Assembly (NCBI RefSeq): GCF_964204645.1
Contig: NC_134026.1
Location: forward strand, 10,377,950-10,441,949
Direction of reading: 5' to 3'
Origin: Tubulanus polymorphus
Taxonomy: Eukaryota > Animalia > Nemertea
DNA length: 64,000 nucleotides
Numbering within the stretch: the first letter of the stretch is position 1; every line of letters begins with the position of its first letter. Position numbers and translations under genes: made by a program. The notes under the pieces are model-generated. The model was not told the origin of the DNA. It was given only the letters and a program-made list of their open reading frames with translations, and searched no databases. Shown here in pieces: positions 32,701 through 64,000 of the stretch.

Positions 32701-35700
32701 CAAAATTTTTTAGATTTGTATATCCTAATATAACCTCGCTAACTGGAACAAGAGGACCATGAGGTCCTGTAAACGCGCATATTTTCCTAAGCTTCACAGG
32801 CGCGGATCCAGAGGGGGGTTTCAGGGGTCGTGACCCCCCTGCTCAGCTACCAAAAAAATGTTTTAATTGTTTTCTTGAAGGAATGTACTCAAGACAAAGC
32901 GGACGAACAGGACAAAGCGGATTGAACAGGACAAAGCGGATTGATTCAGGATTGGCAATAAAATTCAGAATGCCACATGGCTGAATTGTTATATCAGATG
33001 ATGCAGTAGATATGACATCTGTTGGAAGTATTTTAGGATCAGCACAATAGACCACTCATAAACCAACCAGACACTCTGAAGCGAAGTGATGACAGTCGGT
33101 GATCATAAAACATTAGTTAACCTAGTTTTGGATTCTGAATGCCCGTTAAGTTTGATCTATACACTCACAGTTCGTCAACTATCTTGTCTTTTATATTACT
33201 AAAACACGTTCCACAAATTGAGTGTCACACAATCGGATGTAATAAATGTCATAGGATATTAGTATCAGTGTCATATCTCAAGGGTGTGTCATCAAAGTTT
33301 GAATTTGAAAGGTGAAGTTTGTTTTTTCTGACGTCATCATGTGGAGCCAGCGGCCATTGTTTTTTAAACATATAAGAAGCAAGACATTTCATCTCTGATT
33401 TTCTAATAACCACAGATACAATATCAATAACCCCAGGAACTCTAACTTTATCCCAAGCCCATCGGTAAGTGCCTGTGATGCTGCAGCAGGGTGACTACTA
33501 TCTACTTGTTCCGTGTTTTTGCTGTAAAGCAAGACTTTATCTGTGGTCTGATGAAGGACGGCAGTAGGAAAGGCCAGATTTGTTATATTGACAGCAACAT
33601 ATACAGACTAATATCTTTTTCATAGGAATTCTAATTTCCCATATGAAAAGATGATTATGAAGTTGTAAAATTATGATGACAAGTGCGAAGAGCACAAAAC
33701 ACAATTCGCGAGAGAAAATGTGCAAACAACATAAATACCATTTCCCTGTGTTTCCTGAGATTTAATCAAGTTTATCTCAATGTCACATGATGTCTCGATT
33801 TTAATGAAGTGCTTGGACTACTCACTGCTTAGCCATCCAAGCACTGTGTTCAAATGCTAGTTCTGGACTGCCCACACGACTTTTGAAGAAATCAATATGT
33901 TTTCGAAACTGCGCAATGGAATCTAATGGAACATTGTGTTGGAAAGATATACGACAAATCTGCAAAAGGAAGAAAAAATACACATATACAAATATTTTTG
34001 AGATGGCAGAACGATACCTTTATAACATTTCAAATAGTTGTGATTGAGACGTGATGAGAATAGTTGGATTCGGTTTAATCCAAATTGTAGAAGAAATAAA
34101 AGTGAAACAAAATTGTAATATTTACTTCGAATACATTCCCTGGGAAAATACACTATAGCCAGAATCCCAAAGAATGGAGGAGGGAGGCGACCAAAAGTCG
34201 ATTTAAATTCTCTACACTTACACTCACCATAAAACTCTCTGCAGAAAACCGCAACAAACCCCAGGTGAGCCAGTGGAAAACCAAAAATCAGGGAGCTACC
34301 GTGCTGCTTCCTTTTCAGTTCCTAACTGTACTGGTAGATAATAACATGCCTATTATGACCCCGTTACGTTTGAGTCGAAAAAAGGAAATCAAACAACCCG
34401 GTGTCAACTGACTCCCGGATACCTTAGTAAGGCACTGACTGCCATTACCTCGATATTAACCTAAACCAGTAGGTAAAAAACTTAAACTCTAGAAGCAGCC
34501 TTGCCCAGGCTATATAAATGAAATCATGATTCATGTCTAAACTTAATACCTATAACAAAAGGAACCCTTACCACTAACTGTCTTAAGGTAACCTAGGCCC
34601 TGTAAAAGATGCCCACAACTTATATACATCAACTTTCTTATAGCTGAATACAGAAGAAACCCTTTAATCCCCAGGACCTGGTTTAAAAAGGTCTAACTGG
34701 GCCCGATGTTTTTTGGGTTTTTGTACGCTTATTCGTTGTGCAGTAACAATTGGACCCAACGTGGACAGTGAGCCTAACTGTCCAGAAACGTCCTTCAAAT
34801 AAAATGACGAGAAGGTAGATGGAGACGTCCAGAAGGCTGAACGACAAACCTGTTCCAAGGAAGCCCCCGTGAATAATGACCAGGATGTGGCTAATGCCCT
34901 CACCTGATGAGAATGTATCCCGAGCGGAGCCTGGGCCCCCTGAGAATGCAGAGTTTCTTTAATTAAAGATACAATCCATCTAGCGATTGTGTCCCTTGAG
35001 ATATCTCTCTTATCCCCTTGTCGGAGAGGAATAAAGAGCCTCTCCCTATCTTGTCTGTGGGGAAGTGTCCTCTCTAGGTACTCCTTTAAAGCTCTTACTG
35101 GACAGAGCGACGTATCAGGAAGATCGTGAGATACCCTATGCGTCAAAGCCTCGATCTTCCAAGATCTGGCTGCTACGGAAGCCTTTTGATTCTTGGCAAT
35201 GAAACTAAGACCAGGCCTTAAAATGACAAACCTATCTTGTGGACCAAAGGAAATATGACCCGGACGCATCGATAAAGCATGAACCTCCGAACGCCTCGCG
35301 GCCATCGCTAAGAACAGTAAGAACACCGTTTTCTTAGATAAGTCTGACAGGGTAGTATTGCGGATAGGCTCGAAGGGAGTGATCATAAGTGCTCTAAGAA
35401 CCACTGTTAAGTCCCATGGCGGGATATCTGAAACCTGTTTGGGTCTCTTAACCCCAAAACCTGATATCAATTGAGCTATTTTCACATCCTCCGTCAGTAC
35501 AGGGACGCCCGCTGAACGAAAAGTATGCCCTATTGCTGATCTGTAGCCTTTAATGGTTATAACCTATTCTTCTCTTCGAACAGGAAATAGAAAAAATCTA
35601 TTAACTCTGACACAGAGGGGTGGAGAGAATCCACCGCTCTCCTATTACACCAATCGGAGTAACATTCCCATTTGGAATCGTACAATGCTCCGGTAGAGGG

Positions 35701-38700
35701 ACGTTTGGATTCCACGATAAATCTGGCTGCCCCCGAAGAAATTCCTTGGTTTGAAAGCTGTCGCTTGACAATGGCCAGGCGTGTAGATTCAATTGGAATT
35801 GATTTGGGTGTAACTTGAATCGTCCCTGGGACAGTAACCCGGGGTAATTGGGTAGAGTGCGAGGGAAGTCCACCAGTAGATGCAGGAGTCTGACGAACCA
35901 TGTCTGAGTCGGCCAACAGGGAGCCACTAAGACCACTTGACAGTTGACTGCCCCCTTTATCTTCTCCAACACTCGATTGAGTAGGGGAGTGGGGGGAAAG
36001 GCATAAGCCAGCAGGTTGTCCCAACTCAGAGATAGAGCGTCCACCCCCCACGCCAAGTCGTCTTGAAATGGGGACACAAACACCGGACACCTCGTGTTGA
36101 AGCGAGTGGCAAACAGGTCCACGTTCGGACTTCCCATCAGGGCCCGGACTTGATTGGCTACCCTGACTGCCAATGTCCACTCGGTGGCTACTGGCTTGTC
36201 TTGGCGAGACAGAGCGTCGGCCACCACATTCAGGCTGCCGGCCAGGTGGGATACCGAAAGAATCATCCCTTGAGCCTGGACCCAGGTCAGAATCTGAGCT
36301 GCTAAGTTGGATAATGTTGGGGACCTGGTCCCCCCCTGGTTGAGCAAATAAGCCTTTACTGTGGAGTTGTCTGTTGACAGCCACACATGATGACCCCCTA
36401 ACCTCCTTTTGAAGTGTTTGAAGGCCTTTTGAACCGCTAACAGTTCCAGGTGATTTATGTGGAGATGAGCTTCTGCTCGAGACCAGTTCCCGGCTTTCTG
36501 AAAACCTTCTACATGTGCTCCCCAGCCCTGATGGCTGGCATCCGTGAATAGATGAATCGGGGCCTTCAATGGTGCTAGGGAGGTGCCTCTTGTCAAGTTC
36601 TGCGCGAGAGTCCACCACTCGAGGTCGGGGATTAGGTTCACCGGTGGTACCGGCAATAAGGTATCCCACTCTTCCCCTACCGATCTCCAAGCTTGCTTCC
36701 AGAATCTTTGAAGAGAACGGCTGTGTAAACGACCGAGCAGAACTACGAGTGCAACGGAACTCATCTGGCCCAAAACCTGGGACCAGGACCGAGCCGATCT
36801 GGGCGCCCCCGTCAGGACACCAAGCTGCCTCCCTCAGCTTCTGAACTCTGGCCTGTGCTGGTCTGACTAAGGCCTATGAGGTTATGATATAACGATTTAG
36901 AGCTGACAGATCTATTACCGTCCTTAAGCCCCCAGATGATTTTGGGACGGTGAAAATTCTTGAATACCATCCCGGGGATCCTAGAGGGATTTCTTCCAGC
37001 GATCTTTTTAAAATCATCTTGTTGATCGCTGGCATAACGTGGGACTCCTGCCCCCACTTCAGCCTCATTTCCACCCGCTGATGAGATAGATGCGGTTTGT
37101 GAACGAATTTCAGTCGGTATCCTTTGGAAACGATCTTTGTAGCCCAAGTGTCGCCAAATTTTTCTAGCCAGTGGGAAGAGGCGTCTTGAAGGCAAGAGCC
37201 CACTGGCCTGACATCTTCAACGGGTACCTGTGTTGGCGCGGCCACGAAAGGGTCGATTGAAGCCCCTACGTAATCTAGCCCTACCCCTTTGGGGATTGTC
37301 ACTGTAAGAACTTTGAGAATAACTGACATAGTTCAAATTGTTATTGTTGTCGCTTTGAGCTCTCTTGGAGCTTGTCCAACCCGCTTTTTTGAAGCTTAAT
37401 TTCCTGTTGACTTGAGATTGATTGTATCCGGGCTGATTTGCCGGTGAGTTTCTGTAAGTAGAGTTGCCGGCGTAATAACTAGGCTTTTTTGGTGTCTTCC
37501 ATGACTGCCTACCGGCCTTAGCCTGAGATTCTCTGATCTTGGTGGCCTCCGCATCGGCGGATGCGCAGCACCCAGAGAAAACCCGTGAGGAATTGCCCAG
37601 CGGTGCTCTGTATAGAGCTACTTTCACCGGTTCTGGAAGTTTGGAGTTGGCCAACAAGCTATATCTATTGATCAAGGCTAGGTTAGCCTGGATCCTTATA
37701 CCCAAAGGTACTTGGTGACACAACGCCTTGGCCATAGACTGTAGAATTCTCTCTATGGTCGCCACGTGTTCGGACATTGTCTCTAGATCCGGATTATCCT
37801 GGACTAGTTGAGACTTTACTTTTTCTAACTCGCCGTGCATGGCAACTAGTGAAATGTCTTGGAAAGACGTGATTTGACAAATGCTACGAGCTAATTGGTT
37901 CAACGCTCCCATTGCTTGTTTTGGTAAAGTGTAGGAGGGCGGTGGTTTTTTGGGTAGTCCTATCGTGGTTGACCCATCAGAGTCTAACTCAAAGTGTGGT
38001 TTGAATCCGGGATCATCAGCACCTGGTGTGGCGTAATAATAAGTCTTGTACCCTGATATGGGCGGATACAACGGAGAGAAAAATTTTGAATCCTTCATGC
38101 CTGCCTCTAATGGAGGATAAGACCAAGTATTGTCTGTACGCTTACCACCCCACAGTGTCGTGTCCAAAGTCTCACGCCATTCTTCTCTATATGCAGAATG
38201 TGGTGCTAAAACTAACTCTTCGGTGTCATCGGATGGACTGAAGATTTTGGCGGCCGACCCTCTTAGGCTGGGTTGTTTTAGGTTTGGCCTTGGTACCTCC
38301 GTACCGGGAGAAAACTTCTTTTACTAAGGAATGTCTCCCGTCTCTTCCATTGTGGATGGTGACGGAGAGCACGATCTGTGCATGTCTCCGTCCCTGGATA
38401 GACCAGGATCTTCTGGATCACGAGATTTTTCCTCGTCAGAAAAATCGTTGACATCATCCAACACTAACCCATCAGTTGGGTTGCAGGACAGCCCTGTTGG
38501 CACTGATGGAGGCTTGGGGCCCGGGGGTTCCTTACCTTTTAGTTGTTCCTTAAGGGAAGCGATCTCCTGCGAGAATATCGCTAGCATATTCTTGATGTCA
38601 CTAGAGTCAGACGGCTTATCAGCCGGTGATCTAGAACGTGAGCGACGACGTTGTTGCTTATGAGCACGCTTGCGCCTACGCCTGGTAGGTGACGGAGAAT

Positions 38701-41700
38701 AGGTTCGACTTACTCTAGAACGGGACCTAGAACGAGACCTTGACCCAGAGCTGGGGTCAGACGGTGAACGACGTCGTTTTTTATTAAAGCGCTGGTGCCT
38801 ACGTCTAGTAGGAGACGAAGAGTCGGACCGACTAAATCTCGATCGGGACCTGGACCTAGACAGGGATCGTCCCGGATCATTGCCCTGTTTCCGAGTATCC
38901 GGGCATTCAGGTGTATCAACCTTGCCCGATGAGGACGCTGGGGTCTTAGAAGGTGTATCAACCTTGCCCCAACGTTTAAATCTCGCTCCCCTAGGGGAGC
39001 TGGAGACGTCGTGATCCGACATGTTAATTATTGATACGATTTTTAGTACAGATTATTAATTTTCGTGAATGATGAGACGGAAATCAATTACGTTGAATGA
39101 TAATTATTAAATATATAAGGCGGGAGGAGCCGCTAAGAAAACAGCACGGCGCCCCCGCGAAACCGGAAGTAGAAAACCGGTGGCAAAATGTTGAAATGCG
39201 CATAGATTAAAAACGATCTCACCCGAAGTTCGACTTCTATTCCGAGATCAATCACTCTTATGTCTGTTTCTTATATCAATTAGAACGGATGTCCGATCCA
39301 ACACGAAGAATTTTAACCGATTTACGAGCACTGCCGAAACACGTTCTCTAGAGAACAAGCGCCAAGCAAAAAGAAGATGGCGTCTCGCCAGATGGCGCTA
39401 TGTTACGGCGCCCCTACCAAAAGTTACGGCGCCCCTACCTAATTTCTATAATCACCTTGTAATTAATGAATCCTGCGATTGATTTGATCTCCAGCAAATT
39501 TGTATCATGCATACGTAAGTCCAACACATGACCATAAGCTTGTTTGTAGTGCCTGTGAAAAATAGTGAAGAAACGGTAAAATAATTTGTGTTTCTCTACA
39601 GAAAGAAAAAAACTGCTAAAAATTTACGAAAAATACTCACTTCAATGCAATATGGGTATCTTGCTTGAGCTCGTTGAAAAATGCGATCTTAAATTGGTGT
39701 CGCACGAAAAGCAACTGGAAGAAATATTTGAAATACAATTATTTCAAGTTACTTCAAGTGACTACAATTAAAACAACACAGCTTCCTTCGTTTTTGGTCA
39801 ATAAGGGATAAGGAGAAATACTGAATTCACTACAATCTTTCCATTTTCTAAATTTCCAATTCGGTGCGACAATATAACAACCCGGGGTGGATCATAGGGA
39901 TCCCAATTCCATGTGCCGAGATGAATCATATGAAAGCGCTAACATCAAATATCAAGACAATTAGCTAAAACTTGTTGATATTTTCTTTGAAAATCCTTTT
40001 TCATCTGCAAATGAAGTCTGATAACACTAGATGGCCGCCAAATGCTTGACAATTGACCCTTCCAAAAGTGAAGTTGGCCATCTTGGTTCTGACAGGGTCA
40101 GTTTATAGGCTGCAGATGCGTCTAGGAAAGATATATATAAAGCAAATATCAAGACAAGCCATTGAATCAATTTCAAAACCTCTCAAAATAACTGGATTCC
40201 GTCTACGGACGCACAAATAATCCAATAGTCCATGGGGAATTACCGGGTAAGTCCCAACCTGAATGATATAAAATGACAAACTATGTCAACGCTAGCCTAA
40301 GAATTCAGACCACTATGAATACAAACGGTCACAGGACGGCCATCTTGTCTCCCATCAACCAAATTTTTCGTGATACTAGGCCCTAGGGGAATACATATGC
40401 ATACCACACCTAAAGACAATTAATAAAAGCCTTTTCAAAACTTCCTATGAAAACTTCAAAAATGTGCATGAGGGCTGATTTTGCTGAAGAAATCTTGATT
40501 CTGACTAGGCCAATTTTTGGGCTGACGGACAACAAGTGAATGTTAGTCCCATGTGGCCTAAAAAACCAGAACCAAAATTTTCTCTGACTTCGGCATTTAT
40601 CCTACTAATGGATGGCATGCTGTTTTATACAACAAATGGGCCTACATACCTGATGTGTAGTTTTATTCAGGAATTCCTTATGGGATTTTACTCTCCTCGC
40701 CTCTGTATAATAGTAACTCTGTGCAAGTTCGTAAAATGCATTCTCCAACCTGAATAGAATAGTTCACAATGATCAATGTTATGAAGCACAATCACATCTT
40801 TCTTAATGAAACTTAGATGAGTTATTTCAAAAACGTTATAGTTTTGGTTTCCGAGCAAAATATCTCAACATGAAATACATGCATGTTTCCTTCTAAAAGG
40901 GGACACTTGGTCAAATGCCTGATAATCTGACAATTTCAATATTCAACTCCCCTTGCGAAAAAAGAGAAATTTGTTCTAAACTAGTGACCTTGAAATTCAC
41001 CAAAATCTTAGAACATGTCATAAGCTTCAAATTTGCAATTGAACGTGGTTACAAAACATGCATACTAGAAGGTATCAATTCATATGGAAATAACATCTTA
41101 TTCCACTAATCATATCCTGGTGAAGATATACAGTCACATCAACGACCTTGTAACTCACCGCAATCACAGAACATGTGATGAGCTATAATTTTACAATGAT
41201 TATGTAACAAAATGTGCCTAGCTACCACTACATGGAAATACTAAGTTATTCAGCTATTCAATGCCCCTGGTGACCATATACAACAAGCAGCCTATCAGCT
41301 GATACAGCTCTGCTGTTTTACGATAAGATTTTACAAGGACCACCTACACAGCACTCTCAAGAGTTCAAATCCAGAAAACGGCTCCATAACTTTTTAGCCC
41401 TTGGCCCATAGCATCTACATACCAAGCTTTGTCAATATCAGATAATGATTGTAGGACTAGTAGCATTTGAAAGATTTTACAAGTGTGACCTGTACAGCGC
41501 CAGATTGGGAATATGGCTCAGCAACATTTAGCCCATGGCCAAAAATATTGACATACCAAATTTTGTCAAGATTGGATAATAATTGTAGGACAAGTAGCAA
41601 TTTAAAGATTTTACAAGCGCCACCTGTACAGCGCCCCCTAGAGATCAAATTGGTAAAACAGCTCCATAAATTTTTAGCCCTTGGCCTGTAGTATCTATTT

Positions 41701-54962: not shown

Positions 54963-57150
54963 GGGTCATTCTTAAGAATCCGCAGACCTGCCCTGAGAGG
55001 CGACATGGCTTCTCAGGGCAGGAACCTGCCCTGAGAGGCCATTGGCGCAATTAAGCAGTATAAATGGAAAACTCGGCTATAATTCTGATGAAACGGCGAA
55101 CTATTTCGCCGATGTTTGCATGCACATTGTCGAGTATCATGAAATTAAATGGATTAAAATGAAATAGATTAAATGTATTGATATATCGATACTTAACAAA
55201 TAAACGAAAGTAATATTTCAATTAAAATTCATTCATAATAAGAAATGTATTTTTAAAAAGTCATGTAGTAACCGACGACGGAAAGTTATGGGGATTATAT
55301 AAATTTCAAAGCATTAATTTAATCATTCAAATATCCTATAGGCCTACATAAACAATTTGTGTCGTCCACTGATATAAGTGCGTTTCAATATGCTGTATAT
55401 TCTTATTCAACTGTGAATTTTTTGGGGGTTTCTACTGCTTTCGCAGCAACTCTATTGTAATTCTGCTGATCATATTTTTCTTCGGGGTAAGGGTTGGTTG
55501 ATCATATGTCATATTATTTTTTCGTTAGGTTAATTACCTAAGCGCAGGCCAACTTTTATCAGTTTTATACTTTATCTAATGACAATGGCATAATTATAGT
55601 TGCCACAAGCAATAAGGCATACACAATTAAATCTAATCTGATCAGCCCTGCGGGTGCAATTATATACGTAGTCTACTGTCGTCAACCTGCCCTGAAAGGC
55701 CAGTTTAACTACTGCAGTTTGAGTTCTGCAGATCACCTGCCCTGAGAGGCCAGTTCAACTGCTGCAATTTGACTTCAGATATCAACCTGCCCTGAGAGGC
55801 CAGTTCAACCTGCAGATTGACTTCCGATGTCAACCTGCCCCGAGAGGCCAGTTTCATTCTGCAGATATCACCTGTCCTGAGAGGCCAGTTTCATTCTGCA
55901 GATATCACCTGTCCTGAGAGGCCAGTTTAACTGATGCAGTTTGACTTCTGCAGATCACCTGCCCTGAGAGGCCAGTTTCATTGCTGCAGTTTGACTTCTG
56001 ACACCAACCTGCCCTGAGAGGCCACTTTCATTCTGCAGAAATCAACCTGCCCCGAGAGGCCACTTTCATTCTGCAGAAATCAACCTGCCCTGAGAGGCCA
56101 GTTCAACTGCTGCAGTTTGACTTCCGATATCAACCTGCCCTGAGAGGCCAGTTCGACTGCTGCAGATTGATTTCCGATATCAACCTGCCCTGAGAGGCCA
56201 GTTTAACTGCTGCAGTTTAGTTCTGATATCAACCTGCCCTGAGAGGCCAGTTTCGTTCTGCAGAAATCAACCTGCCATGAGGCCAGTTTTGATTCTGCAG
56301 AAATCAACCTGTCCTGAGAGGCCAGTTTCATTCTGTAGATATCACCTGCCCTGAGAGGCCAGTTCAACTGCTGCAGTTTGACTTCCGATATCAACCTGCC
56401 CTGAGGGGCCATTTGTTGCAAGTGCATTCATATCTATTGATGCAAACAATGTATAGAAATACGTATGCAATTGTAACACAAAAAAGTGAAGTGCAAAGAA
56501 ATTGGTCGAAGAAACATAGCACGTTAATTGTAAATTATAGATTACAAATAAAAACAGCGCCGCTTGGAATCATATAATTTAATTGTTACAAAAACTTGTA
56601 TCATCGTTATCATTAATTACCTAACATAGCAGCAAAATACTATTCCTGAGAATAATTGTGATTTTTCTTCTTCATTAAGTTATAGATGAAATTTTTGATG
56701 ATGTTTTGATAAGAAATGTTCCCACAGAAAAAAGTTTTTTTCATTTCTTTATTTCTATGAAAAATATTAGTATTTTTTAATTTGTTTCTGAAAAATACCA
56801 ATTCTAATTCTATTTTCTTATATATTTCAACAAAAATTCATATTTTGATTTTAGTTGTAACTTTTGTTTCCCTATCGTCTTGACTTATTAACTGTTTTAG
56901 CTTAATATGATTAAAAGCATTTGTATTTCTTAATTTATTTCTATAGAATACAGCGTAGTCTTCTATTGTATGATCGAAAACTTTAGTTTGAATCTCGAAT
57001 ATCCCGATCACCTTGCCACCATTTCAGCTCTCTGTTGAATGGGTTTTCATTTTCTATTGATTCAAACGACTGGCCTCTCAGGGCAGGTTCCTGCCCTGAG
57101 AAGCCATGTGGCCTCTTAGGGCAGGTTCTGGAAATTCTGCAGAATGACTC
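54963..57150. mobile_element. Non-autonomous TIR element (GRG...CYC ends, Sola2-like) with an internal satellite
   Basis: ~80-bp TIRs: gggtcattc...cctgccctgagaggcgacatggcttctcagggcaggaacctgccctgagaggcca versus the reverse complement of 57071-57150. No TSD resolved. Confidence 0.7.
55683..56411. repeat. Tandem array, about 17 copies of caacctgccctgagaggccagtt in alternating ~38 and ~50-bp units
   Basis: Core motif counted by eye. Spacers are variants of tcattctgcagaaat or caactgctgcagtttgacttccgatat. Confidence 0.9.
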
Positions 57151-57741
57151 ATATTGGATGTTAACCGAAAACCACGATCCACCAATTCAATCCAATATGC
57201 ATTTATTGTTCCCAATCGATGACGGAATCATGAGTCAAAAGCGAGGCATAGAGAATACTAACGGAGAACTTAAAACTGATAAAAGATTGGTTAGTAAAAA
57301 AAGGAAGGATAAGAAAAGAGAAAAGCTACAAAAAGAAGTCGTCGTGCATTGCATCGCTGACTGAGGACTGACTTAGACAGACTCAATACGATAAAGTATT
57401 GAATTGGCTATTGAGCAACGCCGCCAACAGCCGTTGGGAATGGCAGCGGCGGAAATATAGTGAAATGAAAAGAAAGAATCGATTTCCTAGAAAATGGTTT
57501 CATAAACCTAGAAAGCTTCATTTGGGCCTACTAGAGTACCGGTACTTTATCTTTTGACAAAGCGGCCGTGGGTGGACTATCGTCCGATGTTTACGCTATG
57601 GCACCGTGAGGAATATGGGTATGGGAACGATAACCACACTCAAACGTGGTGAACGGACAATAAGATAAAAACCCACTATCTACAGATTAAAAGAATTTAA
57701 AAACAAGAATTTACTTATTCAATCTAAAATATATAGAATAA

Positions 57742-57769
57742 ACGACGTTTCGATCTCACCCTAGAGACC
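57742..57769 (-). ncRNA. 3' half of a minimal Penelope-type hammerhead ribozyme (5' half at 63135-63150)
   Basis: The empty-site reconstruction on the - strand reads acCTGACGAt-ggtctc-tagggt-gagatc-GAAAcgTC-gt. Confidence 0.65.
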
Positions 57770-58234
57770 AGTAATAGGGGTAATGGGCTTTCAAGCCAAA
57801 GGTCGAACGGTCGAGCTCATAAAAAATGAAAAATATGAAAATAATAACAATTTCTACTTGAATTAGTCGCGAAACTCATAAAAAAATGAAAAATAATTCT
57901 CACACACTCGAATTTATTTTTCATTTTTACTCGCTAGAAAAAAGTGTGAGTAAAGTGTGAGTGAAATAAATTCGAGCGTGTGAGAATTATTTTTCATTTT
58001 TTTATGAGTTTCACTCCTAATTCAAGTAGAAATTGTTATTATTTTCATGTTTTTCATTTTTTAATGAACTCGACCATTCAACCTTTAACCTGAAAGCCCA
58101 TTACCCCTATTACTCTTAAAATATTCATATACATGAATAAAATATATATGAATAACATATAAATTGATAGATTATTCAATATAAAAGTGTGAGTGAAATA
58201 ATTCATATTTAAAACATTGAATATTTATATTTGA

Positions 58235-58885
58235 ATGAGTTTTAATAAAAGTTTTGTTATTAAAATGAAGACAGAAGAAGAAGAACCCAACTTTAAAATC
58301 GAAATCAATGAAACCAATAAATCATTTTCACAGTTTAACATTAAAAATTATATTTCAGCAACAAATCTAGTGTCCGCAAGGTATTATAAAATTGATGACA
58401 TTACTATGATTAATCAAATATCATCAAATGGAACATATTTAATTACTGAACTGATAGATACTTTTGATAATGGCGTTAAAAATCCTAAAATGTTCAATAC
58501 AGTTTTTAATTTTAAAGGAACTTTAGATGAAAACATAATTAATATTCTTAAAACTCCTTTCAATGAAAGAAATGATGATATAATACTTTCAAAAGATTAC
58601 AATGATTTGATTAACTTAAGAATTGAAAAAAGACAATTATATTATTTCAATTTTGATAATAAACAAATTATCTATAATGAAAATTCATCAAATATTGGCA
58701 TTCAATGTGAATTAGATAATGAAAAATCATTTAAAGATATTGCAGTTCAATGTAAATTAGATGATGAATTTAGAAAATTCAATCCTAATGAAAAAGTGCA
58801 TTGTTATTGCGGAGGTAAATATTTAAAATCACATAAATCAAAGCATTATGAAACAATTAAACATAAAAACTGGTGTAAAGAGTAA
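58235..58885 (+). CDS. Intronless 216-aa hypothetical protein with a C-terminal CxC-H-H zinc-finger-like motif (left-arm copy)
   Basis: Intact ATG-to-stop ORF in very AT-rich DNA, ending EKVHCYCGGKYLKSHKSKHYETIKH. Three full-frame homologous copies occur in the window. Confidence 0.75.
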   Translation: MSFNKSFVIKMKTEEEEPNFKIEINETNKSFSQFNIKNYISATNLVSARYYKIDDITMINQISSNGTYLITELIDTFDNGVKNPKMFNTVFNFKGTLDENIINILKTPFNERNDDIILSKDYNDLINLRIEKRQLYYFNFDNKQIIYNENSSNIGIQCELDNEKSFKDIAVQCKLDDEFRKFNPNEKVHCYCGGKYLKSHKSKHYETIKHKNWCKE

Positions 58886-58937
58886 CAATTCTACATTATA
58901 ATTATTTAATTGAGTTAAATGTTTTAAATATCTAATA

Positions 58938-59685
58938 GACTGTTAAAATGATAAATTGTTCGACTGTTGAAATGATAAGACAGTTGAAATGATAAATTGT
59001 TTGACAGTTGAAATGATAAATTGTTTGACAGTTGAAATGATAAATTGTTTGACAGTTGAAATGATAAATTGTTTGACAGTTGAAATGATAAATTGTTTGA
59101 CAGTTGAAATGATACATTGTTCGACTGTTGAAATGATAAGACAGTTGAAATGATAAATTGTTTGATAGTTGAAATGATAAATTGTTTGACAGTTGAAATG
59201 ATAAATTGTTTGACAGTTGAAATGATAAATTGTTTGACAGTTGAAATGATAAATTGTTTGACAGTTGAAATGATAAATTGTTCGACTGTTGAAATGATAA
59301 GACAGTTGAAATGATAAATTGTTTGACAGTTGAAATGATAAATTGTTTGACAGTTGAAATGATAAATTGCTTGACAGTTGAAATGATAAATTGTTTGACA
59401 GTTGAAATGATAAATTGTTTGACAGTTGAAATGATAAATTGTTTGACAGTTGAAATGATAAATTGTTCGACAGTTGAAATGATAAATTGTTTGACAGTTG
59501 AAATGATAAATTGTTTGACGGTTGAAATGTTAAATTGTTTGACGGTTGAAATGATAAATTGTTTGACAGTTGAAATAATAAATTGTTTGACGGTTGAAAT
59601 GATAAATTGTTTGACGGTTGAAATGATAAATTGTTTGACAGTTGAAATGATAAATTGTTTGACAGTTGAAATGTTAAATTGTTTG
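58938..59685. repeat. 24-bp minisatellite (gttgaaatgataaattgtttgaca)n, left arm
   Basis: About 31 units, with recurring 17-bp variants gttgaaatgataagaca. Confidence 0.95.
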
Positions 59686-59877
59686 GTTGTAAATTTAATT
59701 GTTATTTGATTTAATCATTTAAAAGTTTAATATTTTTAAAATGATTATAAAATATTTAATTAAAAACTAGCAAATATTTTATAAACTGTTTAATTTTTCT
59801 CTTAAATAAATGGATGGTTTCATCCCAACTGGGAAAAGTGATTTGAAACATTATTTAGCAGCAGGCGGATTAATATT

Positions 59878-59979
59878 ATAGAAATCAAAAAGATTTAAAT
59901 AAAAAAACAATAAGTTACTTTATCTAATACTAACTTATTTAACTTATTGTTTTTTTATTTAAATCTTTTTGATTTCTAT
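59878..59979. repeat. Perfect 40-bp hairpin at the inner end of the left arm
   Basis: atagaaatcaaaaagatttaaataaaaaaacaataagtta (59878-917) and its exact reverse complement (59940-979), with a 22-nt loop. Confidence 0.9.
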
Positions 59980-60396
59980 TCGCACTATTGGTTAACAAGA
60001 ATTGACTAGAATTCAAATAGATTTAACAAGAAATTCAATAACTTTAACTGTTAGTATCACTCTTGTATTATTTCATTGTTTCTCTTATTGAATAAGCCAA
60101 CTAACTAATATCACTCTTGTATTATCCTAGTAAAATGTAAAGAATTTAAAATATCATACTTGAATGAATTAAAACATAAATTACTTCTGTTACTTCATTT
60201 TCAGAAATAAAGCATAATATGTATTTAATACCATTAATACGTATTTAATACCATTAATACGTATTTGATACGTATTTAATACGTATTTGATACATTGATA
60301 CCTCAACCCCCTTTTTTAACATAAATATAATTTACTCATTTTCATACATTTCAACTAATATATTTTATATTTTCAGCTAATTTAACAGTCAATTTC

Positions 60397-60714
60397 TTAT
60401 TTTGATTCATATAATTTTTCATCAAGTTCGTGAAGATACATGTGATTCCTTAATGATTTTTTATTTTTATATCTTTTATTGCATATTTCACAGCTTTTAA
60501 TATTATTCAATCTATCTGAAATATAATTCATATTTTCTACTAATTCAGTGTATCTAATTTTACAGCAATCATAGAATTCTAACAACTGTTTTATAGTATA
60601 AACTGAGAATGAAAATAAACCTGTAAGCATAATAATTGATTTAATATTCTGTTGATTTTTATATATTAGATGTAATATTTCTAATACCTTATTTTCACTC
60701 ATTTTTATAGACAA
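60397..60714 (-). CDS. 105-aa hypothetical protein with one C2H2 zinc finger and an N-terminal hydrophobic stretch
   Basis: CEICNKRYKNKKSLRNHMYLH fits CX2CX12HX3H. IIMLTGLFSFSVYTI is hydrophobic. Confidence 0.62.
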   Translation of the reverse strand: MSIKMSENKVLEILHLIYKNQQNIKSIIMLTGLFSFSVYTIKQLLEFYDCCKIRYTELVENMNYISDRLNNIKSCEICNKRYKNKKSLRNHMYLHELDEKLYESK

Positions 60715-60749
60715 AATATATAGAATAAATTAAATTAAAAGATGTTGTT

Positions 60750-60968
60750 TTAATCCTCTAAATCATTTTCTAAATTAACTTTTCTATTGTTATTCTTTCT
60801 GTGATTGTTTCCATTTAACTTCTTTAATTTCTTGCTCAATTTTATATTTTCATTCATCAAATCCTTACTGATATTTTCATAATAAAAGAAAAGCGCAGCC
60901 AATATTAATCCGCCTGCTACTAAATAATGTTTCAAATCACTTTTCCCAGTTGGGATGAAACCATCCAT
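60750..60968 (-). CDS. 72-aa predicted single-pass membrane protein with a basic tail
   Basis: YLVAGGLILAALFFYY is transmembrane-like. A truncated mirror copy of the 5' end lies at 59810-59881 on the + strand. Confidence 0.5.
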   Translation of the reverse strand: MDGFIPTGKSDLKHYLVAGGLILAALFFYYENISKDLMNENIKLSKKLKKLNGNNHRKNNNRKVNLENDLED

Positions 60969-61092
60969 TTATTTAAGAGAAAAATTAAACAGTTTATGAA
61001 ATATTTGCTAGTTTTTAATTAAATATTTTATAATCATTTTAAAAATATTAAACTTTTAAATGATTAAATCAAATAACAATTAAATTTACAAC

Positions 61093-61967
61093 CAAACAAT
61101 TTAACATTTCAACTGTCAAACAATTTATCATTTCAACTGTCAAACAATTTATCATTTCAACTGTCAAACAATTTATTATTTCAACTGTCAAACAATTTAT
61201 CATTTCAACTGTCAAACAATTTATCATTTCAACTGTCAAACAATTTATCATTTCAACCGTCAAACAATTTAATATTTCAACTGTCACACAATTTATCATT
61301 TCAACTGTCAAACAATTTATCATTTCAACTGTCAAACAATTTAACATTTCAACTGTCAAACAATTTATCATTTCAACTGTCAAACAATTTATCATTTCAA
61401 CTGTCTTATCATTTCAACAGTCGAACAATTTATCATTTCAACTGCCAAACAATTTATCATTTCAACTGTCAAACAATTTATCATTTCAACTGTCAAACAA
61501 TTTATCATTTCAACAGTCGAACAATTTATCATTTCAACGGTCGAACAATTTATCATTTCAACTGTCAAACAATTTATCATTTCAACTGTCAAACAATTTA
61601 TCATTTCAACTGTCAAACAATTTATCATTTCAACTGTCAAACAATTTATCATTTCAACTGTCAAACAATTTATCATTTCAACTGTCAAACAATTTATCAT
61701 TTCAACCGTCAAACAATTTATCATTTTAACCGTCAAACAATTTATCATTTCAACTGTCAAACAATTTATCATTTAAACTGTCAAACAATTTATCATTTCA
61801 ACTGTCAAACAATTTATCATTTCAACTGTCTTATCATTTCAACAGTCGAACAATTTATCATTTTAACTGTCAAACAATTTATCATTTCAACTGTCAAACA
61901 ATTTATCATTTCAACTATCAAACAATTTATCATTTCAACTGTCAAACAATTTATCATTTTAACAGTC
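61093..61967. repeat. 24-bp minisatellite, right arm (inverted)
   Basis: About 36 units of tgtcaaacaatttatcatttcaac. Confidence 0.95.
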
Positions 61968-62019
61968 TATTAGATATTTAAATCATTTAACTCAATTCAA
62001 TAATTATAATGTAGAATTG

Positions 62020-62670
62020 TTACTCTTTACACCAGTTTTTATGTTTAATTGTTTCATAATGCTTTGATTTATGTGATTTTAAATATTTACCTCCGCAATA
62101 ACAATGCACTTTTTCATTAGGATTGAATTTTCTAAATTCATCATCTAATTTACATTGAACTGCAATATCTTTAAATGATTTTTCATTATCTAATTCACAT
62201 TGAATGCCAATATTTGATGAATTTTCATTATAGATAATTTGTTTATTATCAAAATTGAAATAATATAATTGTCTTTTTTCAATTCTTAAGTTAATCAAAT
62301 CATTGTAATCTTTTGAAAGTATTGTATCATCATTTCTTTCATTGAAAGGAGTTTTAAGAATATTAATTATGTTTTCATCTAAAGTTCCTTTAAAATTAAA
62401 AACTGTATTGAACATTTTAGGATTTTTAACGCCATTATCAAAAGTATCTATCAGTTCAGTAATTAAATATGTTTCATTTGATGATATTTGATTAATCATA
62501 GTAATGTCATCAATTTTATAATACCTAGCGGACACTAAATTTGTTGCTGAAATATAATTTTTAATGTTAAACTGTGAAAATGATTTATTGGTTTCATTGA
62601 TTTCGATTTTAAAGTTGGGTTCTTCTTCTTCTTTCTTCATTTTTATAACAAAATTTTTATTAAAACTCAT
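62020..62670 (-). CDS. 216-aa hypothetical zinc-finger-like protein (right-arm copy)
   Basis: Differs from the left copy at 4 residues (S6N, T13K, G66E, I116T). Confidence 0.75.
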   Translation of the reverse strand: MSFNKNFVIKMKKEEEEPNFKIEINETNKSFSQFNIKNYISATNLVSARYYKIDDITMINQISSNETYLITELIDTFDNGVKNPKMFNTVFNFKGTLDENIINILKTPFNERNDDTILSKDYNDLINLRIEKRQLYYFNFDNKQIIYNENSSNIGIQCELDNEKSFKDIAVQCKLDDEFRKFNPNEKVHCYCGGKYLKSHKSKHYETIKHKNWCKE

Positions 62671-63164
62671 TCAAATATAAATATTCAATGTTTTAAATAT
62701 GAATTATTTCACTCACACTTTTATATTGAATAATCTATCAATTCATATGTTATTCATATATATTTTTATTCATGTATATGAATATTTTAAGAGTAATAGG
62801 GGTAATGGGCTTTCAGGTTAAAGGTTGAATGGTCGAGTTCATTAAAAAATGAAAAACATGAAAATAATAACAATTTCTACTTGAATTAGGAGTGAAACTC
62901 ATAAAAAATGAAAAATAATTCTCACACGCTCGAATTTATTTCACTCACACTTTACTCACACTTTTTTCTAGCGAGTAAAAATGAAAAATAAATTCGAGTG
63001 TGTGAGAATTATTTTTCATTTTTTATGAGTTTCGTGACTAATTCAAGTAGAAATTGTTATTATTTTCATATTTTTCATTTTTTATGAGCTCGACCGTTCG
63101 ACCTTTGGCTTGAAAGCCCATTACCCCTATTACTGAGACCATCGTCAGGTGTGAGACAGATCTT

Positions 63165-63257
63165 GGCGGCAAATATTTAAAATCACATAAATCAAAGCAT
63201 TATCAGACAATTAAACATACCAATTATGGAAAGAATAATAATTCTATATTGAAATAA
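63165..63257 (+). pseudogene. 5'-truncated C-terminal remnant of a diverged homolog of the 216-aa protein
   Basis: GGKYLKSHKSKHYQTIKHTNYGKNNNSILK*. Confidence 0.75.
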
Positions 63258-63438
63258 GATTAAGCTGTATGAGTAATTGGAAAATTTCTGAATATATAAT
63301 AGTTAAAACATGAAACGTGAAATCAGTTAATGAATAACTGTTAAACTGTTAGACTGTTAACAGTTATTCATTAACTAATATCACAATGTTTTAACTATTA
63401 TACATTTGAAATTTTCCAATTACTCATACAGCTTGATC

Positions 63439-63999
63439 TTATTTCAATATAGAATTATCATTCTTTCCATAATTGATATGATTCATTTTCTGATAATGCT
63501 TTGATTTATGTGATTTTAAATATTTGCCGCCACAATAACAATACACTTTCTCATTAGGATTAAACTTATTAAATTCATTATCTAAATCACATTGAATTCC
63601 AATATTTGATGAATTTTCATTATAGATGCTTTGTTTATTATCAAAATTAAAATTATATAATTGTCGTTTTTCAATTCTTAAGTTTATTATATCATTGTAT
63701 TCTTTAGAAAGTATTAAATCATAATTTCTTTCATTAAAAGGAGTTTCAAGAATATTTATTGTGTTTTTATCTAAATTACCTTTACAATTTAAAACTGTAT
63801 TGAATACTTTAGGATTTTTGACGCTATTATCTAAAGTATCTATTAGTTCAGTAATTAAATATGTTTCTTTTAATGATATTTGATTAATCATAGTAATATA
63901 ATCGATTTTATATTGGCTTCCATACACTAAATTTGTTGCTGAGATATAATTTCTAATGTTAAATAATGAAAATAAGTTATCAGTTTCTTTGATTTCGAT
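63439..63999 (-). CDS. Diverged homolog of the 216-aa protein (5' end beyond the window)
   Basis: The frame is open to the window edge (IEIKETDNLFSLFNIRNYISATNLVYGSQYKID...). Roughly 75-80% identical by hand alignment; ends CYCGGKYLKSHKSKHYQKMNH. Confidence 0.72.
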   Translation of the reverse strand: MEIKETDNLFSLFNIRNYISATNLVYGSQYKIDYITMINQISLKETYLITELIDTLDNSVKNPKVFNTVLNCKGNLDKNTINILETPFNERNYDLILSKEYNDIINLRIEKRQLYNFNFDNKQSIYNENSSNIGIQCDLDNEFNKFNPNEKVYCYCGGKYLKSHKSKHYQKMNHINYGKNDNSILK

Positions 64000-64000
64000 T

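What the first reader, a model, noticed from the sequence alone, without database searches (positions are those of the whole stretch)
57770..63134. Gene-bearing giant palindrome with a Maverick/Polinton-type integration signature but no replication or integration genes
Seen: a sharply bounded 5365-bp, very AT-rich insert with ends AGTAATAGGGG...CCCCTATTACT and a perfect 6-bp duplication GAGACC on both sides. About 80% of its length is two inverted arms (2108 and 2234 bp). Each arm runs terminal hairpin, 216-aa gene, 24-bp minisatellite, start of a small membrane-protein gene; the 1-kb spacer holds the rest of that gene and a C2H2 gene. No pPolB, rve integrase, ATPase, capsid or transposase ORF is present. 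Known: 6-bp TSDs, 5'-AG(T) termini and long TIRs characterise Mavericks/Polintons, and rve-integrating virophages leave similar TSDs; genes and tandem repeats inside ITRs are typical of linear dsDNA viruses. Inference: a non-autonomous satellite or defective derivative mobilised in trans by a Maverick-like virus, keeping intact accessory genes. It could be an undescribed family. An alternative boundary (CAGT...ACTG with a 4-bp AGAC TSD) also fits the sequence.
Basis: partly seen in the sequence, partly recalled or inferred. Interest (0 to 1): 0.88.

Follow-up and report, generated by a model that had tools for sequence, protein, structure and literature searches.

The report
Fold-back satellite with Polinton-type ends
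This 5.4-kb mirror-image piece of mobile DNA is a real member of a many-copy family in an animal-like genome; it has the ends of virus-like Polinton/Maverick transposons and three orphan genes but no enzymes of its own, so it likely spreads as a folded-back parasite of a helper element that has not yet been found.

Summary
The 5365-bp insert has AGT...ACT ends, a GAGACC duplication and arms of 2108 and 2234 bp. The arms differ at about 1% of sites and in minisatellite order, so this is not an assembly fold-back. Raw reads of another individual put the family end at 57770 with diverse flanks, which favours the 6-bp TSD. They show the host repeat uninterrupted and a depth gradient from about 500x (end) to about 13x (interior) of the flank.

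One correction: the 1-kb spacer is not a separate interior. The hairpin at 59878-59979 is the element's symmetry centre. Nine reads and one contig show other copies staying palindromic past it, so this copy lost about 0.9 kb of one arm. An older neighbour folds back at a different point. Genes A and B show purifying selection, but none of the three genes has a homologue beyond zinc-finger motifs.

Best reading: a snap-back, non-autonomous derivative of one Polinton end, integrated in trans. No helper could be sought (no genome held). Non-autonomous Polintons and 2-kb gene-bearing TIRs are known. The fold-back form was not found in ten paper searches, but earlier AI notes report it in other genomes.

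The parts
57764..57769 (+). left copy of the 6-bp target-site duplication GAGACC
   Evidence: reads place the element end at 57770
57770..58114 (.). left terminal imperfect hairpin beginning AGTAAT; its halves differ by about 14%; shorter variants exist in other copies
   Evidence: joints 57871>58012 and 57923>57998-58000
58235..58885 (+). gene A, left copy: 216 aa orphan with a C-terminal CxC..H..H zinc-finger-like motif
   Evidence: dN/dS 0.30 against the neighbour's copy
58938..59685 (+). 24-bp minisatellite, left arm, 32 copies
59810..59881 (+). truncated left copy of gene B (23 codons, then a stop at the arm junction)
59878..59979 (.). central hairpin (40-bp perfect stem, 22-nt loop at 59918-59939): symmetry centre of the whole element
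   Evidence: opposite-strand joints; expectation
60397..60702 (-). gene C: 101 aa, hydrophobic stretch plus one C2H2 zinc finger
60750..60968 (-). gene B: 72 aa orphan, hydrophobic stretch then a Lys/Asn-rich tail
   Evidence: read variants 10 of 12 at third codon positions
61093..61967 (-). 24-bp minisatellite, right arm, 37 copies
62020..62670 (-). gene A, right copy, 216 aa (7 nucleotide differences from the left copy)
62792..63134 (.). right terminal hairpin ending ATTACT
63135..63140 (+). right copy of the target-site duplication
57625..57769 (-). host target, left part: high-copy repeat (about 900x flank depth) carrying a minimal hammerhead-ribozyme-like core that the insertion splits
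   Evidence: motif type from PMC4209133 passages
63141..63156 (-). host target, right part of the same repeat
   Evidence: 1802 reads leave at 57767 and continue into these letters
63163..64000 (-). older related element: gene A homologue (78% aa identity), own symmetry centre (loop 63345-63356) shortly after the gene, left arm cut at 63163, runs off the window

Best explanation
The insert is a real, multi-copy fold-back palindrome built from one element end copied twice around a central hairpin, and it is likely a non-autonomous derivative of a Polinton/Maverick-type element that would be copied and integrated by a helper's polymerase and integrase. Shown: the ends, the 6-bp duplication at this site, the symmetry centre, several turning points in the family, the loss of about 0.9 kb from one arm in this copy, and selection on genes A and B. 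Inferred steps: (1) during protein-primed copying from a terminus the new strand turns back on itself, giving a snap-back molecule with two identical ends; (2) copying round the loop gives a double-stranded palindrome whose two ends both fit the helper's integrase, which leaves a 6-bp duplication; (3) such palindromes spread as families of their own; (4) after insertion the arms drift apart and deletions near the centre make the element asymmetric.
For: End and TSD: AGTAAT...ATTACT matches 5 of 6 letters of the (AGT)2//(ACT)2 motif and the 6-bp TSD reported for Mavericks (PMC8097293 passages). 1680 reads of run X5 are clipped at 57770 with unlike flanks (agreement 0.34); the inner copy of the end is preceded by G, not C. 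Symmetry centre: 40-bp perfect stem at 59878-59979, and the left arm joins it directly. In X5, 9 reads (3 + 6; 6 starts) show opposite-strand joints at the two ends of this stem, against 2.0-10.5 expected, depending on the overhang needed, if all interior-bearing copies were palindromic there. About 45 clipped reads would be expected at 59878 if copies ran on into other sequence; none is among the 6 X5 loose-end rows shown (20-30 reads each; 235 rows not shown). One X1 contig joins 59901 to 60109 on opposite strands. Other turning points: neighbour at about 63350, 6 reads at 60543/60567. Depth falls inward: 519x, 228x, 190x, 66x, 37x, 32x, 13x the flank. Selection: gene A vs neighbour dN/dS 0.30 over 179 codons, Fisher p 6e-6; gene B 7 of 12 listed read variants synonymous (p 0.002). 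Not an artefact: arms differ, and at 4 of those differences 95% or more of X5 reads carry the right arm's letter. Analogy: AAV snapback genomes, symmetric and asymmetric (PMC8235507 section 3.1); polB-less polintons that stay mobile (preprint passages).
Against: No helper was found or could be sought: no genome is held. Viral and metagenome scans found nothing related (the 6 hits match only 19-24 letters). None of the three genes matches a known Polinton gene. Only one TSD was seen. The end is AGTAAT, not a perfect AGT repeat. The 9 joint reads could in part be library self-priming at the 40-bp stem. No read or contig shown spans this copy or its 59877/59878 junction, and X5 may lack this insertion. 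Gene C (5 of 14 synonymous, p 0.11) and gene A read variants (3 of 12, p 0.40) show no significant selection, and the variant rows are only the 40 best supported per call (358 and 162 not shown). The depth gradient may partly reflect AT bias and divergence, and the flank depth (5.1) is a rough yardstick.
Confidence: 0.64

Rival explanations
1. It is an internal-deletion derivative of an ordinary Polinton that has 2-kb gene-bearing TIRs; the spacer is what remains of the unique interior.
For: Butterfly polintons with about 2-kb TIRs holding genes, and polB-less mobile copies, are reported (10.1101/2025.02.07.637071 passages). The depth gradient also fits nested deletions.
Against: The left arm joins a perfect stem that is the symmetry centre, and reads and a contig show mirror sequence beyond it. 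The neighbour turns at a different point. No large set of reads leaves at 59878 among the rows shown.
Confidence: 0.12
2. It is a foldback-type cut-and-paste DNA transposon (long inverted arms with internal tandem repeats, as in FB/Galileo; recalled) moved by a DDE transposase of another superfamily, possibly with CAGT ends and a 4-bp TSD.
For: Long arms with a minisatellite and variable length. The 4-bp reading fits this one site equally well.
Against: Reads are clipped at 57770, not 57769. Three intronless AT-rich genes with selection, and a zinc-finger motif shared with unnamed proteins, some of them GIY-YIG-like by eye, look viral rather than like captured host fragments (inference).
Confidence: 0.11
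3. It is a long-standing satellite replicon or genome segment with genes of its own, never part of the helper, that shares only a short terminal signal with it (comparable to transpovirons, or to segmented viruses with a common terminal sequence).
For: 1074 reads share 57770-57826 and then run into one other sequence (agreement 0.79), so a second family shares only 57 bp. The genes are orphans under selection in two palindromes with different centres.
Against: No helicase or other replication gene as in transpovirons (PMC5499653 passages). The selection could have acted in two autonomous parents before each fold-back.
Confidence: 0.11
4. Assembly or library fold-back artefact.
For: No listed read or contig spans the element.
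Against: Arms differ at 16 sites and in minisatellite order; flush 6-bp duplication; host repeat resumes exactly after it; family present in a second study's raw reads.
Confidence: 0.02

Closest known systems
Polinton/Maverick elements (PMC8097293, PMC11296320, PMC4196379, 10.1101/2023.08.22.554363; passages read)
   Same: AGT...ACT-type ends, 6-bp TSD, long terminal inverted repeats, AT-rich intronless genes
   Different: No pPolB, integrase, ATPase, protease or capsid; 5.4 kb against 12.7-24.6 kb; arms longer than the 46-1447 bp range reported for vertebrate elements; one end doubled round a hairpin
Non-autonomous Polintons (Polinton-1N1_DR named in PMC9341505; that N means non-autonomous and that Kapitonov and Jurka 2006 described them is recalled, paper not held); polB-less butterfly polintons with gene-bearing 2-kb TIRs
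   Same: Mobile without its own polymerase; genes inside long inverted repeats
   Different: The butterfly elements keep core virion genes and a unique interior. Whether catalogued non-autonomous Polintons are palindromes could not be checked.
AAV snapback defective genomes (PMC8235507 abstract and section 3.1)
   Same: One genome end doubled into a self-complementary molecule, symmetric or asymmetric, variable turning point
   Different: Those are transient particles of a parvovirus. Here the form is integrated with a TSD and inherited as a family.
Transpovirons (PMC5499653 passages)
   Same: Small helper-dependent linear DNA with TIRs, a zinc-binding protein gene and no capsid
   Different: They encode an SF1 helicase and ride on mimiviruses; no helicase here
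Palindromic Polinton satellites in earlier notes of this scan (unchecked AI notes)
   Same: Giant palindrome, Polinton ends, no core genes
   Different: Different cargo (three orphan genes), nested terminal hairpin, secondary centre deletion; no sequence look-alike

Membership tests
Autonomous Polinton/Maverick | protein-primed DNA polymerase B gene | tested here: not met
   no ORF of 90 aa or more besides genes A, C and minisatellite frames
Autonomous Polinton/Maverick | rve integrase gene | tested here: not met
Autonomous Polinton/Maverick | virion module (capsid, ATPase, protease) | tested here: not met
Autonomous Polinton/Maverick | terminal inverted repeats | tested here: met
Polinton-mobilised (non-autonomous) element | 6-bp TSD | tested here: met
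   one site only; boundary at 57770 from 1680 clipped reads; TSDs of other copies not seen
Polinton-mobilised (non-autonomous) element | (AGT)2//(ACT)2 or (AG)3//(CT)3 end motif | tested here: inconclusive
   AGTAAT...ATTACT, 5 of 6 letters of the motif given in PMC8097293
Polinton-mobilised (non-autonomous) element | ends shared with an autonomous Polinton in the same genome | not testable with these tools
   no genome held; a second family shares the first 57 bp but its interior is unseen
Polinton-mobilised (non-autonomous) element | dispersed multi-copy family | tested here: met
   diverse flanks and depth 13-519x the flank in run X5
Snap-back (fold-back) defective genome | one end doubled round a short loop, variable turning point | tested here: met
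   centres at 59918-59939, 63345-63356 and about 60555
Snap-back (fold-back) defective genome | extrachromosomal self-complementary form that depends on a helper | not testable with these tools
   needs long reads or bench work
Foldback-type DDE transposon | a partner transposase element with the same ends and its own TSD length | not testable with these tools
   no genome; the 4-bp/CAGT boundary is disfavoured
Transpoviron | SF1 (Tlr1-like) helicase gene | tested here: not met

The most novel reading that the evidence does not exclude
The family is a self-sustaining hairpin-DNA satellite of animal Polintons: it lives as snap-back molecules, shares only a short terminal signal with its helper, and keeps three orphan genes under selection for its own transmission. 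It would be an animal counterpart of transpovirons, and its integrated copies would be a genomic record of how Polinton replication turns and restarts.
Probability: 0.3. Interest if true: 0.8.

Novelty: new variant of a known kind. Interest (0 to 1): 0.6.

Why it matters
Polinton replication in animals is known mainly as a model (racket-like single strand, protein priming; PMC4196379 passages). A family of integrated palindromes that each double one end round a short loop, at several turning points, is what snap-back errors of such replication would leave, so a census of turning points and TSDs would test the model from genomes alone. It also suggests that animal Polintons carry gene-bearing parasites, and it gives three selected orphan genes. 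The weight is limited by the missing helper and by the same kind having turned up in earlier notes on other genomes.

Tried and rejected
Whole-genome search: no genome held.
Homologues: none for gene A (83 candidates, 0 passed), gene C or gene B; only near-length proteins were searched. One search (1.84 billion representatives, gene A) gave 13 hits, all on the C-terminal zinc-finger motif. Atlas hits were all under 0.9.
Viral contigs: nothing in 5 scans. Metagenome scan: 6 loci, all chance 19-24-letter matches.
Structure of gene A: pLDDT 37, unusable; fold search 0 hits at E 0.001; PDB sequence search 0 hits.
A weak carbamoyltransferase C-terminal match for gene A (PHROG E 4e-4 to 0.14, Pfam E 0.24) is not backed or 64 and is left as a lead. 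A KilA-N resemblance (recalled motif) had no support.
Rfam: 4 weak matches, all far below gathering; it did not list the host hammerhead, which is split by the insertion.
Expression: no RNA holder listed.
Kapitonov and Jurka 2006 and one review were not held. No supplements were read; Repbase/Dfam entries could not be seen and may describe palindromic non-autonomous Polintons.
Target preference for the hammerhead repeat: rejected for now, since flanks at the element end are diverse.
The minisatellite reading frames are treated as by-products of the repeat.
Full report
Setting. The window looks like an intron-rich eukaryote, probably an animal: scattered exon-sized frames with a Gryzun match, and a retroelement with RNase H and tyrosine-recombinase matches. 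No genome is held, so family-level evidence comes from public runs of the same species label: raw reads X5 (a different study) and contigs X1-X3. The contig runs may include the source sample and are not counted as independent.

Observation. 57770-63134 is 5365 bp at 23.6% GC with GAGACC on both sides. The arms are 57770-59877 and 60901-63134. Each has a terminal hairpin (345/343 nt), gene A (216 aa), a 24-bp minisatellite (32 and 37 copies) and the start of gene B. No other frame of 90 aa or more exists outside genes A, C and the repeat. The arms differ at 14 of 1168 outer and 2 of 192 inner columns, and in unit order. At four of the differences (58367, 58431, 58907, 58922) 95% or more of X5 reads carry the right arm's letter, so the left arm has changed on its own since insertion. 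A chimeric fold-back would give identical arms and no TSD.

Boundary and target. In X5, 1680 reads have loose letters before 57770 with agreement 0.34: many insertions share this end, and it begins at AGT. The inner copy of the end is preceded by G. This favours the 6-bp reading over CAGT with 4 bp, though TSDs of other copies were not seen. The target is a repeat at about 900x the flank depth; 1802 reads leave it at 57767 and go on with the letters found after the right TSD. These reads come from the repeat's many copies, so they show the uninterrupted form, not the empty allele of this locus. On the minus strand the repeat reads as a minimal hammerhead core (type as in PMC4209133 passages; identification by eye).

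The correction. The 102-nt hairpin at 59878-59979 has a 40-bp perfect stem and a 22-nt loop, and the left arm runs straight into it. Read from the right end, the element is: end, hairpin, A, minisatellite, B, C, 0.4 kb, stem, loop, then the mirror image, from which the counterpart of 59980-60900 is missing. In X5, joints on opposite strands at 59878/59980 (3 reads, 2 starts) and 59918/59940 (6 reads, 4 starts, 47 letters on the short side) are the two ends of one 40-letter ambiguity and mean that mirror sequence goes on past the stem. If all interior-bearing copies were palindromic there, 2.0 to 10.5 such reads are expected, depending on the overhang needed; 9 were seen. If copies ran on into other DNA, about 45 clipped reads are expected at 59878, and none is among the 6 X5 rows shown (235 rows not shown). 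X1 contigs join 59901/60109 and 59959/61009 on opposite strands, which fit other asymmetric deletions. Library self-priming at the stem cannot be excluded for the reads. Other turning points: the neighbour at 63163 to beyond 64000 has its own centre (loop 63345-63356) just after its gene A homologue, and 6 reads turn at 60543/60567. The terminal hairpin is itself a fold-back of the end, with shorter variants.

Copy structure. X5 depth relative to the near-unique flank (5.1): terminus 519, inner hairpin end 228, next bin 190, gene A 66, gene B 37, gene C 32, interior 13. Both arms pile on one place, the two calls used 88% and 85% likeness, and AT bias is not corrected, so these give orders of magnitude only. 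1074 reads share the first 57 bp and then enter one other sequence: a second family with the same end, interior unknown.

Genes. No homologues were found (14, 26, 75). The representative library gave 13 hits, all to gene A's C-terminal zinc-finger motif. Gene C has one C2H2 finger. The fold model was unusable. Intactness in this young copy proves little, but selection shows between copies: gene A against the neighbour's homologue dN/dS 0.30 (179 codons, p 6e-6); gene B read variants 7 of 12 synonymous and 10 of 12 at third positions (p 0.002 and 0.0005). Gene C (5 of 14) and gene A read variants (3 of 12) are not significant. These use only the rows the tool listed. The indels listed inside the genes are in frame (58272, 60687, 60955; 41 and 1 rows not shown).

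Mechanism. Shown: ends, TSD, central symmetry, several centres, secondary deletion, multi-copy dispersal, selection. Inferred: snap-back during terminal-primed copying, conversion to a double-ended palindrome, integration by a helper's integrase. The match to Polintons rests on the end motif and the TSD (PMC8097293), not on any gene. I put this at 0.64. Rivals: deletion derivative of a long-TIR Polinton (0.12), foldback DDE transposon (0.11), independent satellite or segment (0.11), artefact (0.02).

Comparison. It is not an autonomous Polinton: pPolB, integrase and virion genes fail (definition in PMC11296320). Gene-bearing 2-kb TIRs and polB-less mobile polintons are reported (preprint). A non-autonomous Polinton name is in use (its meaning is recalled; the 2006 paper was not held). 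Snapback genomes are known for AAV. Ten full-text searches listed no paper describing palindromic Polinton derivatives; I read listings and abstract starts for most hits, the library lacks most subscription papers, and Repbase was not available. Papers seen as passages: PMC8097293, PMC4196379, PMC4028283, PMC6431247, PMC4209133, PMC5499653, PMC9341505, PMC11296320 and both preprints; PMC8235507 as abstract and one section.

Earlier notes. My fold-back reading was written down before the look-up. One search then listed five unchecked AI notes of similar palindromes in other genomes, among 8 shown of 75. They are not support, but they lower the uniqueness of this case. No note exists for this genome or these sequences.

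Verdict. A real and unusual element, a new variant of a known kind; interest 0.6. It would rise if the helper is found and lacks genes A-C.

Noticed in passing
window 57625-57769 and 63141-63156: The target is a repeat at about 900x flank depth whose minus strand reads as a minimal hammerhead ribozyme of the Penelope-repeat type; many X5 reads show opposite-strand joints at 57767.
   Followed up: partly
window 63163-64000: An older member of the same family starts 28 bp from the element's right end with its left arm cut off; such closeness may point to clustered insertion.
   Followed up: partly
window 57770-57826: 1074 reads share only the first 57 bp of the end and continue into one other sequence: a second abundant family, possibly the helper.
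   Followed up: no
window 57770-58114: Of 9 transition mismatches in the terminal stem, 8 form G-T pairs on the same strand (p 0.04), a weak hint that one strand's hairpin is favoured.
   Followed up: partly
window 58674-58768: Gene A has an in-frame 45-bp duplication absent from the neighbour's copy; the repeated GIQC/AVQC stretch recalls dynein light chain binding motifs (recalled, not tested).
   Followed up: no
window 57952-57969 and 58184-58201: An 18-bp sequence occurs both in the hairpin loop and upstream of gene A; a possible binding site.
   Followed up: no
window 34664-39052: GC-rich retroelement on the minus strand with long overlapping frames, RNase H and weak tyrosine-recombinase matches, DIRS-like.
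   Followed up: partly
window 54965-57148: Short inverted ends round an array of 38-50-bp repeats, probably a MITE or Helitron-like repeat.
   Followed up: no
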